Shown here: positions 27,976-32,291 of the stretch, in pieces
How positions within the stretch are numbered: position 1 is the first letter of the stretch
Layout of the letters: every line of letters begins with the position of its first letter
Source of the DNA: Dictyostelium discoideum
Taxonomy: Eukaryota
Reading direction: 5' to 3'
DNA: 64,000 bases
NCBI GenBank assembly: GCA_000004695.1
Contig: CM000152.2
Location: 2,944,001 to 3,008,000, forward strand
Notes under the pieces: model-generated
What the model was told of the DNA's origin: nothing
Database searches by the model: none
Seen by the model: only the letters and a program-made list of their open reading frames with translations
Made by a program: the position numbers and the translations under genes

Positions 27976-30900
27976 TTATTGAGGTGATAATAAATTGAAA
28001 TCATTAATCTCTTGTGATGTTAAGGATAAATTCCCACTATTATTATTATAATTAATATTATTATTATTATTATTATTAATATTATTATTATTAATTTGGT
28101 TATTTTGATTATTTATAATATTTTTATTAAAATTATTATTTAAGAGTAAATTTGGATTTCCAACACCACAGAGTGCATTTAAGAATGGAGTATTTGAGAG
28201 TGAAGCAGAAGTTGAAGTTGGTACATTTGATGGCTTTGATAAAATTCTTTTTATTTTTACTAAAAAACTTTTATTAATTTCAAAAATTAATGCTATATCT
28301 GAAAACTAAAAAATTTTATAATTATATATATATTTTTATAGTTTAATAAATATATATTAATACGGTCAGTGGGTGATATTGATAAATATTAATAATTTTT
28401 TTTCTCTTTTAAAATATTTACCTCGATTAGAGATAAATCCTCTAAATGAATTTTCTCATATTGAGGAAGAGGACAACCATTTACAAAAACTGTATTTTTT
28501 CCTATATTTTCAATATAAAAATTTGCATCTGATTTTAATTTAATAATCAACTTTTTGAGATTAAATTTTTTTTTTATTTTATTTTATTTTATTTTTTTTT
28601 TTTTTTAAAAAAAAAAAAAAGGTTAATAAATTCGAAGAAGATTTTCCGAAAAAAAAAAAAAAACAATAGGACACAAGACATATTAACACACCAATATACA
28701 ATTTTTTTTTTTTTTTCAAAAAAGTTTTTAAAAAAAAATACATACTTGTTTCTTCGAAATCTTATTAACATGGTTTGGATTTTCTTCATTTAAATCAAGG
28801 TCAATTTGGTTCATATTTGAGAAATCACGACCAACAATAATATCTCTTGATTTCATAAGATACCTAATATTTTTACCTCTAATAATATTTGCATATGACA
28901 ATAAATAAAAAAAAAAAAAAAAAAAAAAAAAAAAAAAAAAAAGTAATTTAAAATTAATAATAATAATAATAATAATAATAATAATAATAATAATAATAAT
29001 AATAATAATAATAATAATAATAATAATAATAATAATAATAATAATAATAATAATAATAATAATGGGGGAGAAGTATAACCTCCTTTAATAAAAAAAAAAA
29101 ATTAAAAATTAAAAAAATATATTTACCTAACAATTGCAAGTGCTTTAAAATCTTTATCTCTATCCATTTCATATTCTCTTTCAACTATAACCATATTTTT
29201 CATATCTCTTTTTTCTATTATTTTTTTATTTTTTTTATTTTTTCAATTTACAAATAATATTTTTAAGATATGTTAATAAAACACAAGTATTTTTTTTTTT
29301 TTCTTTTTTTTCTTTAAAAAATTAAATTAAATTAATATATAATTGATTATAAACAATATACAAACCTTCTTTTTCAGATAATAAATAATTTGGAATACCA
29401 GAGAATGGATTTAAAATTAAATCACTCTCTAAATCTGTAATAGTTGGTACATTAGTTGTTAATAAATGATCCCAAGGATAACAATTTGAATCTGTTTGTG
29501 ATGGTAATTGAGTATCTCTTTCATGAAATAAAAATTGAATTAAATTTTCATTTTGTTTCTTTTTTCTTTCCTTTTCTTTTTCTTTTTTATCTTCTTCATT
29601 TTTATTATTATTATTATTATTATTATTATTATTATTATTATTATTATTATTATTATTATTATTATTATTATTATTATTATTATTATTATTATTATTATTA
29701 TTATTATTATTATTATTATTATTATTATTATTATTATTTATATCATTAGTTTGAGATACAGTAGTTGTAGTTCCAATAATTGGTTGATCTATAATCATTG
29801 AAGTAATATCTCTAAATGTTTGTAAATTATTATTATTATTATTATTATTATTATTATTATTATTATTATTATTATTATTATTATTATTATTATTATCAAT
29901 TAAATTTTGTGATTGAGATACAGTTGTTGTAGTTTCAACTATTGGTTGATTTTGATTTTTATCTTGATTTTTATCTTTTTCAATTAATTTTAATTGATGA
30001 ATTTTTAATTTTTGATTAATTATATGATTTTTATAATTTGGAATTTTATTAATATCTTGAGTTAATAATAGAGTACGATAAGATGATTGAAGATATTTTG
30101 AAGTTCTACTTTGATGAAATAAAGTTCTATTATCTTGAAGTAATTGAATGAAATTTGCTCTACTTAAATTGATTGGTGAATTTATTAGTATTTGAAACTC
30201 GACATTTGATAAAGGTGGTGAAGGTGCTTTAAAATGGTTCAATGCCATTAACCCAGACGATTCATCAGCAGTATCGGTATCATATAACATTGAACTCCAA
30301 CGTTGTTCAATCTCATCTGGTGTATACTGGTTTGAGAATTCTTTACAATTTGATGATAATTGTTCAAATGATTCTGAAAATTGAACATTTTCCAATAAAA
30401 TATAGTCATCGTGAATAGTCCACTTACCACGTAAATTCAAATCAGCTTGATGATATCTAATATAACGATTTTGTAATTTTTGTAATTTCTTTGATGTCTT
30501 TATAAATTTATTCTTTGGATGATCACTTTTTATAATTTTTGGTCTTTTTAAATTTAAATCTTCATTATTATTATTATTATTATCTTTAACATTACTAATA
30601 CTACTAAATCCACTAAAACCTGATAATGAACTTGAAAATAATGATGGTGAATGTAATTGCGGTGTATCAGGTCCTAAATTTTGACCATTTTGTTGTAAAT
30701 ATCTATATAATAAATCATTTGAAAGAATTTGATTTTGAATATTTTTCATATCATCATATGTTGTTGTTGCTGTTGATCCTCCATCTCCTTGTAATTTCTT
30801 CATCTCAATATCAACTTGTGATTCAAATTCATTTAAAAATGAAGAACTTGCATTTTTAGAAAGAAATGATTCAAAATCTTCTTTTTTTGGATTTAATTTA

Positions 30901-32291
30901 TCTTTTTTAAAAGTTGGTATTTTCTTTTCAGATGGGTCTTTTTTAGGTGCACCTTTTCTTTTTGGTGTTATTGGTAATGGTGGTATTGGTGCTTCATTTA
31001 AATTTGCTGATATTATATCATCTAATGATGCTGTTAATAAATTTCCACTTGATAATGATGATGATGATGATGTTGTTGTTGTTGTTGTTGGATCCGTTGA
31101 TAATTTTGATTTCTTTTCAGATTTAATAGTTTTTTCTTTTTCACGTTCTTTTCTTTTCTTTTCTTGTTTTTCTTGTTTCTCTAATTTATCTTTTTCTTTT
31201 TGTTTCTCTTTTTCTAATTTCTCTCTTTCTTTTTCTTTCTCTTTTTCTAATTTACTCTCTTTTTCAATCTCTTTTTCTTTTTTCTTTTCTTCTTTTTCTC
31301 TTTCTTTTTCTTCTTTAATTTTTTGTTTATCTTTTACTTTTTCTTCTTTACCTTTTACTTTTTCATTTGATGTTGTATTTGTTATTGATTTTTCTTTTTC
31401 TTTATTACTTTGTTGTTCCTTTTCTTTTTTAGTATCTTTATCATTATTTTCTTTTTCGATTTCACTATTATTATTATTATTATTAATTTCTGTATTATTA
31501 TTTGAAGTATCTCTAATACTACTTTTATCTTTATCTTTTTCTCTACTACTATTTGAAGTTCTATCTTTATCTTTATATTTATCTTTTTCCTTTTCTTTAT
31601 CTCTGCTACTTCTTTCTTTATCTTTATCTTTGTCTTTATCTCTGCTACTTCTTTCTTTATCTTTATTTCTTGTTTGTACACCAAATATAGTTGCTAAAGG
31701 ATCATTATAAGATGGAGGTTTTATATTTAAATTTGGTTTTTGTACGGATGTATTTCTACTACTATTGCTGCTACTACTATTACTACTACTATCTTTTTCT
31801 CTATCTCTATCCCTGTCTCTATCCCTATCTTTTTCATTATCTTTTTCTCTAATTTTATCTCTACTTTTTGAAGTGGATGATGACGATGACGATGATGATG
31901 ATGATGATGATGATGATGATGATGATGATGATGATGATGATGATGATGATGATGATGATGATGATGATGATGATGATGATGATGATGATGAAGAGGAGGA
32001 TGACGAAGAGGAGGATGATTTTTGTGGTGTTGGTGATATAATTCTACCACTACTTGATACTTTAAAAGGGAAATCTGATGTATCATTAACATCGGTTTCT
32101 AATGACCCTTTGCTGTGTGACTTTGATTTTTTAATATCACTTTTATTTTCATTATTATCTTCACTGTTGTTGTTGTTATTATTATTATTATTATTATTAT
32201 TTTTTACACTATTTTTTACACTTTTATCGTTATTTTCAATATGGGTTTTTGAAACTCCCTTTGAAATATGGGTTAGTTGTTCTTGGTTCAT
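27976..32291 (-). CDS. Microspherule protein 1 (MCRS1/MSP58) orthologue with an MCRS_N domain and a C-terminal FHA domain. Exons: 29366..32291, 29127..29214, 28746..28878, 28422..28550 and 27976..28305.
   Basis: The large exon holds WTIHDDYILLENVQFSESFEQLSSNCKEFSNQYTPDEIEQRWSSMLYD, the MCRS_N signature (W..eDD..L......F..FT..E...RW..LLYD). The downstream exons splice to ...EKRDMKNMVIVEREYEMDRDKDFKALAIVRGKNIRYLMKSRDIIVGRDFSNMNQIDLDLNEENPNHVNKISKKQLIIKLKSDANFYIENIGKNTVFVNGCPLPQYEKIHLEDLSLIEFSDIALIFEIN.... This aligns along its length with the human MCRS1 FHA region (LAVLRGRHSRYLMRKREITLGR...NQIDVDLSLEGPAWKISRKQGVIKLKNNGDFFIANEGRRPIYIDG). Donors are GAAG|GTTTGT, TTAG|GTAAAT, CAA|GTATGT and GAG|GTAAAT. 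All phases (1, 2, 0, 0) check arithmetically. The N-terminal half is dominated by a 43-residue poly-S run encoded by (GAT)n on the opposite strand, RD/KD/KE-rich repeats and poly-N. Confidence 0.8.
28957..29063. repeat. (AAT)n about 35 units, intronic (MCRS1 intron 29215..29365 region, which also includes the adjacent poly-A).
   Basis: Read directly. It lies between the proposed exons 28746..28878 and 29127..29214. Confidence 0.9.
31868..31991. repeat. (GAT)n, about 41 units. It encodes the poly-S run (TCA frame) of MCRS1 on the minus strand.
   Basis: Pure GAT array read directly. The minus-strand ORF shows 43 consecutive Ser. Confidence 0.95.

What the first reader, a model, noticed from the sequence alone, without database searches (positions are those of the whole stretch)
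27976..32291. MCRS1 orthologue reconstructed from five exons, with an extreme low-complexity N-terminal half
The track shows separate ORFs, the largest of which ends in intron read-through. Splicing four short downstream exons recreates a textbook MCRS_N plus FHA protein whose FHA segment aligns along its length with human MCRS1. The N-terminal half carries a 43-Ser homopolymer, RD/KD/KE repeats and three poly-N runs. MCRS1 is a subunit of the INO80 and NSL complexes. The first donor (GAAG|GTTTGT) is non-canonical for this genome, so that junction may lie a few codons upstream at TCTG|GTATTC.
Basis: partly seen in the sequence, partly recalled or inferred. Interest (0 to 1): 0.5.

Follow-up and report, generated by a model that had tools for sequence, protein, structure and literature searches.

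The report
Dictyostelium MCRS1 gene, five exons

Summary
The finding holds. On the minus strand, five exons (32291-29366, 29214-29127, 28878-28746, 28550-28422, 28305-27976) join in frame into a 1201-aa protein. All four introns are GT..AG and very AT-rich. The protein has a Pfam MCRS_N domain (aa 622-748, up to 59 bits) and a C-terminal FHA domain (34.9 bits). The FHA domain is assembled only by splicing exons 2-5. An AlphaFold model of that part matches solved FHA domains.

The window is D. discoideum: a neighbouring ORF is 100% identical to DDB_G0280115. A 99.8%-identical public assembly already carries a called gene with the same start, the same stop and a 1201-residue product.

The annotated Polysphondylium violaceum orthologue has its four introns at the same positions and phases, with identical internal exon sizes. 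The residues between the two candidate first donors are conserved across five dictyostelids. So GAAG|GTTTGT is the first donor, not TCTG|GTATTC.

Beyond dictyostelids and unnamed environmental sequences, the best named homologues checked are insect 'microspherule protein 1'.

Corrections: the Ser run is 48 residues, not 43. The two long Asn runs (23 and 45) lie between MCRS_N and FHA, not in the N-terminal half.

Membership of INO80 or NSL complexes is inferred, not tested. Low interest; already known.

The parts
29366..32291 (-). Exon 1 (2926 nt, aa 1-975 plus the first base of codon 976). It starts at ATG 32291 and ends at donor GAAG|GTTTGT.
   Evidence: the start is the same as the called gene in the near-identical assembly
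31875..32018 (-). 48-residue serine homopolymer (aa 92-139), encoded mostly by (TCA)n
31101..31874 (-). Charged low-complexity region with RD/KD/KE repeats (about aa 140-397). It has no counterpart in the P. violaceum orthologue.
30048..30428 (-). MCRS_N domain (aa 622-748; Pfam PF13325 profile positions 1-140 of 199)
29604..29894 (-). Linker holding the poly-Asn runs N23 (29894-29826) and N45 (29738-29604), all AAT codons
29215..29365 (-). Intron 1 (151 nt, GTTTGT..AG, phase 1, 9% GC)
   Evidence: same position and phase in P. violaceum
29127..29214 (-). Exon 2 (88 nt; EKRDMKNMVIVEREYEMDRDKDFKALAIV, ending with the first two bases of an Arg codon)
28879..29126 (-). Intron 2 (248 nt, GTAAAT..AG, phase 2). 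It contains a perfect 36-copy trinucleotide microsatellite (TAA on the + strand) and a poly-T run.
28746..28878 (-). Exon 3 (133 nt; ..GKNIRYLMKSRDIIVGRDF..KISKKQ). It begins the Pfam FHA match and carries the GR and S-x-x-Q motifs.
28551..28745 (-). Intron 3 (195 nt, GTATGT..AG, phase 0)
28422..28550 (-). Exon 4 (129 nt; LIIKLKSDANFYIENIGKNTVFVNGCPLPQYEKIHLEDLSLIE), the core FHA strands
28306..28421 (-). Intron 4 (116 nt, GTAAAT..AG, phase 0)
27976..28305 (-). Exon 5 (330 nt): the last FHA strand (FSDIALIFEIN), a C-terminal helix, an Asn-rich tail and the TAA stop at 27978-27976
   Evidence: the stop is the same as in the public gene call

Best explanation
This is the Dictyostelium discoideum orthologue of microspherule protein 1 (MCRS1). 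It is a five-exon, minus-strand gene encoding a 1201-aa protein. The protein consists of an N-terminal extension of about 400 aa that is lineage-specific and low in complexity, a conserved basic and acidic stretch, an MCRS_N domain, an Asn-rich linker, and a C-terminal FHA domain that exists only after exons 2-5 are spliced. Shown here: the gene structure, the two domains, the FHA fold, orthology within dictyostelids, and MCRS1 as the closest named relatives outside them. Inferred from work on animal and plant MCRS1: the protein is nuclear and acts as an adaptor subunit of chromatin complexes (INO80 remodeller and/or a MOF/NSL-type acetyltransferase). In that model the FHA domain would provide a protein-protein contact, possibly dependent on phosphothreonine. 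The homopolymer tracts are the trinucleotide-repeat expansions common to this genome, not a special feature of this gene.
For: The spliced model is in frame with GT..AG introns and an exon/intron GC contrast. MCRS_N scores 52.9-59.4 bits and FHA 34.9 bits. The AlphaFold model of exons 2-5 has mean pLDDT 81.6. Its 50 best Foldseek PDB hits are all FHA domains or FHA-containing proteins; the best is Rad53 FHA1 at E 1e-7, TM 0.67. The P. violaceum orthologue KAF2068638.1 carries MCRS_N plus FHA and is 43% identical over 741 aligned positions. Its gene has introns at the same four positions and phases, with exon sizes 88/133/129. NP[FY]xxIPx[FY] is conserved in five dictyostelids, which supports the downstream first donor. 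The named non-dictyostelid homologues checked include insect microspherule protein 1, with 39% identity over the FHA domain and 28% over MCRS_N. The S-x-x-Q variant of the FHA S-x-x-H motif is shared with the MCRS1 proteins. A 99.76%-identical public assembly has a called gene with the same start and stop and a 1201-residue product. The organism is D. discoideum. D. discoideum has an ino80 gene (PMC3848188). MCRS1 is a subunit of metazoan INO80 and NSL (PMC12326766, PMC6607013) and is defined by MCRS_N plus FHA from humans to plants (bioRxiv 10.1101/2023.07.11.548616).
Against: No transcript data were available, so the junctions rest on conservation, reading frame and a public gene call whose exon coordinates I could not see. 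The exact 1201-aa sequence was not retrievable from the protein collection. Agreement with the public model is therefore shown only for span and product length. Pfam MCRS_N matches only profile positions 1-140 of 199. FHA was not reported when the full low-complexity protein was scanned; it appeared only on the C-terminal fragment. The FHA domain lacks the canonical His and the S/T-N-G-T loop, so phosphothreonine binding is uncertain. No experiment or paper links this Dictyostelium protein to INO80 or NSL.
Confidence: 0.92

Rival explanations
1. The gene is the same, but intron 1 uses the upstream donor TCTG|GTATTC (exon 1 would end at 29399). That gives a protein 11 residues shorter, lacking GIPNYLLSEKE.
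For: The upstream site is in the same phase and also yields an open frame. GTATTC and GTTTGT both differ from the GTAAGT donor used as the standard splice site in a Dictyostelium construct (PMC3159450).
Against: The 11 residues are conserved as GIPHFMMIPKD in P. violaceum, and the IPx[FY] core is conserved in Cavenderia, Synstelium and Acytostelium. The annotated P. violaceum intron 1 starts at the homologous downstream position, GATG|GTAGGT. The public gene call gives 1201 residues, not 1190.
Confidence: 0.04
2. Intron 1 is often retained, so the main product would be the 989-aa read-through ORF: MCRS_N without FHA, ending at 29322.
For: The read-through ORF is open for 14 more codons. No expression data could be consulted.
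Against: Exons 2-5 are the most conserved part of the protein, at 83% identity to P. violaceum, and they form a complete FHA fold. The intron is 9% GC with standard GT..AG ends.
Confidence: 0.03
3. It is a generic FHA-domain protein that only resembles MCRS1 and is not its orthologue.
For: FHA domains are widespread. The MCRS_N match is partial (positions 1-140 of 199), and identity to insect MCRS1 over that domain is only 28%.
Against: Most of the listed profile hits, including every named one checked, match in two stretches, consistent with both domains in the same order. The named hits checked are MCRS1. MCRS_N scores twice its gathering cut-off. The family-specific KxSxxQ motif and the RG..RY.M motif ahead of the FHA core are shared.
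Confidence: 0.02

Closest known systems
Microspherule protein 1 (MCRS1/MSP58; Drosophila MCRS2/Rcd5; Arabidopsis AtMCRS1/EMB1967)
   Same: MCRS_N domain followed by a single C-terminal FHA domain. It shares the RG..RY.M...GR motif and the K(I/V)S(K/R)(K/R)Q motif. It is 39% identical over the FHA domain and 28% over MCRS_N to Harmonia axyridis MCRS1.
   Different: It is 1201 aa against about 460 aa in animals. It has a low-complexity N-terminal extension of about 400 aa (S48, RD/KD/KE repeats) and an Asn-rich linker of about 100 aa (N23, N45) between the domains. No functional data exist for the Dictyostelium protein.
Polysphondylium violaceum KAF2068638.1 (hypothetical protein CYY_010037; UniRef name 'FHA domain-containing protein')
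   Same: Orthologue with the same domain order, the same four intron positions and phases, and exon sizes 88/133/129. It is 83% identical over exons 2-5.
   Different: It is 765 aa. It lacks the poly-Ser and charged-repeat N-terminal extension and the long poly-Asn linker.
Canonical phosphothreonine-binding FHA domains (for example Rad53 FHA1, PDB 1g6g and 5t2s)
   Same: Predicted beta-sandwich fold (TM 0.67, E 1e-7). The Gly-Arg pair and the Ser of the S-x-x-H motif are conserved.
   Different: The His of S-x-x-H is Gln, and the S/T-N-G-T loop is replaced by G-K-N/R, as in other MCRS1 proteins. Sequence identity is only about 18-20%.

Membership tests
MCRS1 (microspherule protein 1) family | MCRS_N domain (Pfam PF13325) | tested here: met
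   52.9 bits on the full protein and 59.4 bits on the fragment, against a cut-off of 25.8. It covers aa 622-748 and profile positions 1-140 of 199.
MCRS1 (microspherule protein 1) family | A single FHA domain at the C-terminus, downstream of MCRS_N | tested here: met
   Pfam FHA scores 34.9 bits against 20.7 at aa 1018-1093. The fold is confirmed by the AlphaFold model and Foldseek.
MCRS1 (microspherule protein 1) family | The closest named homologues outside the immediate clade are MCRS1, matching in both domains | tested here: met
   The exhaustive profile search gave 532 hits. Most listed hits match in two stretches. The named ones checked are microspherule protein 1 from insects. Pairwise E-values are 3e-24 (FHA) and 8e-10 (MCRS_N). 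A strict reciprocal best-hit test against the whole D. discoideum proteome was not possible.
MCRS1 (microspherule protein 1) family | Family-specific FHA sequence signature: RG..RY.M before the GR pair, and K-x-S-x-x-Q in place of S-x-x-H | tested here: met
   Alignment with insect, ichthyosporean and plant homologues. Invariant columns are G31, Y36, M38, G46, R47, S71 and Q74.
MCRS1 (microspherule protein 1) family | Physical association with INO80 and/or MOF-NSL complexes; nuclear or nucleolar localisation | not testable with these tools
   Known for animal MCRS1 (PMC6607013, PMC12326766). D. discoideum has ino80 (PMC3848188). No data exist for this protein.
FHA domain (PF00498) | Beta-sandwich fold | tested here: met
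   Mean pLDDT 81.6, pTM 0.77, 11 strands. The top 50 PDB matches are all FHA domains or FHA-containing proteins.
FHA domain (PF00498) | Conserved phosphothreonine-binding residues (Arg of G-R, Ser and His of S-x-x-H, Asn of N-G) | tested here: inconclusive
   G-R and Ser are present. His is Gln, and the S/T-N-G-T loop reads G-K-N-T. Binding itself is not testable here.
Spliceosomal GT-AG introns of Dictyostelia | GT..AG ends, AT-rich introns of about 100-250 nt, frame kept, positions conserved in orthologues | tested here: met
   Transcript evidence could not be tested.

The most novel reading that the evidence does not exclude
The D. discoideum-specific additions could have acquired a function. 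These are the 400-aa Ser-rich and charged N-terminal extension and the N23/N45 linker between MCRS_N and FHA. They might drive condensate or nucleolar 'microspherule' targeting of an INO80/NSL-type complex, instead of being neutral repeat expansions. Alternatively, retention of intron 1 could produce a regulated isoform without the FHA domain.
Probability: 0.07. Interest if true: 0.35.

Novelty: already known. Interest (0 to 1): 0.1.

Why it matters
It matters little beyond annotation quality. The work confirms that a correct five-exon model can be rebuilt from raw sequence. It shows that D. discoideum keeps an MCRS1 orthologue that could be used to study INO80/NSL adaptor function in a tractable amoeba. 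The gene is already called in a public assembly, the family is well described from humans to plants, and long homopolymer tracts are a known general property of this proteome: nearly 10,000 tracts (PMC9234386), counted as those over 10 residues in PMC13093961. One useful by-product: the automated orthologue models in Cavenderia, Acytostelium and Synstelium appear to miss the last exons. The Cavenderia model is also fused to the neighbouring gene.

Tried and rejected
- A phmmer search of the trimmed protein against PDB sequences found nothing at E<=0.01, so there is no solved MCRS1 relative detectable by sequence.
- The word-indexed homologue search with the 228-aa C-terminus returned nothing, even though P0001 is more than 80% identical there. 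I treat this as a tool sensitivity artefact, not as absence.
- Exact look-ups of the 1201-aa model, of its R827T variant and of the 989-aa ORF were not in the protein collection. I therefore could not show residue-by-residue identity with the public gene product, only the same span and length.
- Exact look-ups of two neighbouring ORFs (32791-33288 and 35381-38923) failed, probably because those genes have introns.
- The bacterial promoter/terminator scan was uninformative: 53 sites against 53.3 expected.
- Literature searches for MCRS1 or microspherule together with Dictyostelium or DDB_G found nothing relevant.
- I rejected the alternative first donor TCTG|GTATTC on conservation grounds.
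Full report
**Observation**

The region lies in a genome of about 20% GC full of trinucleotide repeats. On the minus strand a 989-aa ORF runs from ATG 32291 to a stop at 29322. Its last 14 codons (GLYIVYNQLYINLI*) follow a GT at 29365 and are intron read-through.

I located the junction motifs and joined five exons: 32291-29366, 29214-29127, 28878-28746, 28550-28422 and 28305-27976. This gives a 3606-nt open frame of 1201 codons ending in TAA at 27978-27976. These are exactly the finding's coordinates.

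The four introns are 151, 248, 195 and 116 nt. Their phases are 1, 2, 0 and 0. All are GT..AG and 7-14% GC, against 19-27% GC for the exons.

**What the protein is**

- Scanned whole, it hits Pfam MCRS_N (PF13325) at aa 622-748: E 5.9e-14, 52.9 bits, cut-off 25.8.
- Scanned as fragments, MCRS_N reaches 59.4 bits. The spliced C-terminus hits FHA (PF00498) at E 2.1e-8, 34.9 bits, cut-off 20.7. This match covers aa 1018-1093, from exon 3 to the first codon of exon 5.
- FHA was not listed for the full-length scan. I attribute that to the heavy compositional bias of the protein, but this is an inference.
- An AlphaFold model of exons 2-5 was built on a six-sequence alignment. It has mean pLDDT 81.6 and pTM 0.77, with a beta-sandwich and a C-terminal helix.
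- Its 50 best Foldseek matches in the PDB are all FHA domains or FHA-containing proteins. The best is Rad53 FHA1 at E 1.1e-7, TM 0.67.
- So the FHA fold exists only if all four splices are made.

**Relatives**

The word-indexed search found the Polysphondylium violaceum protein KAF2068638.1. It is 765 aa with precomputed Pfam MCRS_N plus FHA, at E 5.8e-144. It aligns from aa 398 of the window protein to the end of the FHA region at 43% identity over 741 aligned positions. Over exons 2-5 it is 83% identical.

I rebuilt its annotated gene from the contig. Its exons are 610-2269, 2392-2479, 2546-2678, 2791-2919 and 3063-3350. That places four introns at the same codon positions and phases as here, with identical internal exon sizes of 88, 133 and 129 nt.

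An exhaustive profile search of 1.84 billion cluster representatives gave 532 hits at E<=0.001. Most of the listed hits match in two stretches, consistent with hits to both domains. The best are other dictyostelids: Cavenderia fasciculata, Synstelium polycarpum and Acytostelium subglobosum. After some unnamed environmental sequences come proteins that NCBI names microspherule protein 1, from Epargyreus, Coccinella, Harmonia and Planococcus, and plant homologues.

Against Harmonia MCRS1 the window protein is 39% identical over 111 FHA residues (E 3e-24) and 28% identical over 154 MCRS_N residues (E 8e-10).

The alignment shows family-specific features: the RG..RY.M motif ahead of the Gly-Arg pair, and K-x-S-x-x-Q in place of the canonical FHA S-x-x-H.

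The literature defines MCRS1 by exactly this architecture from humans to land plants (bioRxiv 10.1101/2023.07.11.548616).

**The doubtful first donor**

Both sites are in phase 1. Three results favour the downstream donor:

- The 11 residues at stake (GIPNYLLSEKE) are GIPHFMMIPKD in P. violaceum.
- The motif NP[FY]xxIPx[FY] is conserved in all five dictyostelid sequences.
- The P. violaceum intron starts at the homologous downstream position, GATG|GTAGGT.

The public gene call also has 1201 residues, not 1190. I reject the alternative donor.

**Source and prior annotation**

The neighbouring ORF 14706-16307 is 100% identical to 'hypothetical protein DDB_G0280115 [Dictyostelium discoideum AX4]'. 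It also lies on a 6.43-Mb record, CM142509.1 of GCA_054883475.1. That record is 99.76% identical to the window over 19.3 kb.

The record carries a called minus-strand gene whose start and stop coincide with this model and whose product is 1201 residues. The two sequences differ in three places:

- an adjacent two-base change (window 29812-29811, R827T);
- a 9-T length difference in intron 2;
- a 2-A length difference in intron 3.

I could not retrieve the product sequence itself. Identity of the internal junctions is therefore inferred from the equal span and length. No paper in the library discusses a Dictyostelium MCRS1.

**Low complexity**

- The first 420 residues are 83% S/K/E/D/N/R/T.
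- They include an N12 run (aa 31-42) and an S48 run (aa 92-139; 38 TCA codons), not 43 as the finding says.
- RD/KD/KE repeats follow, up to about aa 397.
- This segment has no counterpart in P. violaceum.
- The two long Asn runs, N23 (800-822) and N45 (852-896), are all AAT codons. They lie in the linker between MCRS_N and FHA, not in the N-terminal half.

Such tracts are a general property of the D. discoideum proteome. Reviews count nearly 10,000 homopolymeric tracts, with N, Q, T and S the commonest (PMC9234386); PMC13093961 counts them as tracts longer than 10 residues. They do not make this gene unusual.

**Mechanism**

Shown: the gene structure, the domains, the fold and the orthology.

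Inferred: animal MCRS1 co-purifies with both the NSL acetyltransferase complex and INO80, and binds the KANSL1 N-terminus (PMC6607013). It is listed among the metazoan-type INO80 subunits (PMC12326766). D. discoideum has an ino80 gene, DDB_G0292358 (PMC3848188).

I therefore expect this protein to be a nuclear adaptor subunit of an INO80 and/or MOF-NSL-type complex, with the FHA domain as the interaction module. Whether the FHA binds phosphothreonine is uncertain. The Gly-Arg pair and the Ser are kept, but the His is Gln and the S/T-N-G-T loop is replaced, as in other MCRS1 proteins.

**Verdict**

The gene is an ordinary, already-called member of a well-known family, so interest is low.

Noticed in passing
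window ~21403-27000 (minus strand), immediately downstream of the MCRS1 gene: The next gene on the same strand encodes a MIF4G-domain protein (927-residue public call). Cavenderia fasciculata XP_004350233.1 (1578 aa, named 'eIF-4 gamma middle domain-containing protein') is MCRS1-like in its N-terminal half. Its residues 1135-1393 match this neighbour (E 3e-21). So gene order is conserved, and the Cavenderia model looks like two genes wrongly merged by reading through the intron-4 donor (..LSLIE|RTEK..).
   Followed up: partly
orthologue models P0005 (Synstelium polycarpum) and P0006 (Acytostelium subglobosum): Both automated models diverge exactly at the conserved intron positions: after KKQ in Acytostelium and after LSLIE in Synstelium. 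They lack the last FHA strands, so they probably read through donors and miss the final exon(s).
   Followed up: partly
window 29811-29812: An adjacent two-base difference (GA here, CT in GCA_054883475.1 on the gene strand) changes Arg827 to Thr in the non-conserved linker. Along with one 5-mismatch block upstream, these are the only substitutions in about 19 kb. All other differences are homopolymer-length indels. This suggests either a strain difference or a sequencing error in one of the two assemblies.
   Followed up: no
window 28955-29063 (intron 2): A perfect 36-copy trinucleotide microsatellite lies inside intron 2, next to a 40-nt homopolymer run. The homopolymer differs by 9 bases between the two assemblies.
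   Followed up: no
window 51455-52201 (+): A second, unrelated FHA-domain gene. The ORF ends partway through the FHA match (profile positions 2-28 of 67), so an intron and further exons must follow.
   Followed up: no
window 47402-49213 and 49710-51227 (+): An ORF with two PAS domains and the start of a protein kinase domain is followed by an ORF that continues with kinase-like sequence and extremely long poly-N and poly-Q tracts. This is probably one PAS-kinase gene split by an intron.
   Followed up: no
whole window: Other recognisable genes: ankyrin+MATH (2008-3600 -), protein kinase (5312-8211 -), ANAPC5 (11422-14241 -), FNIP-repeat DDB_G0280115 (14706-16307 -), ComC-like LRR/EGF protein (18635-21064 +), class I methyltransferase (34017-34724 +), leishmanolysin/M8 peptidase (35381-38926 +), M24 methionine aminopeptidase-like (39786-40706 -), kinase with ARM repeats (41780-45238 -), RmlD-like reductase (52500-53411 -), GDI/REP (61746-62933 -).
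   Followed up: partly
(tool behaviour): The word-indexed protein search returned no hit for the 228-aa FHA-containing C-terminus. Yet the P. violaceum orthologue found earlier is more than 80% identical there. Negative results from that tool should not be read as absence.
   Followed up: no
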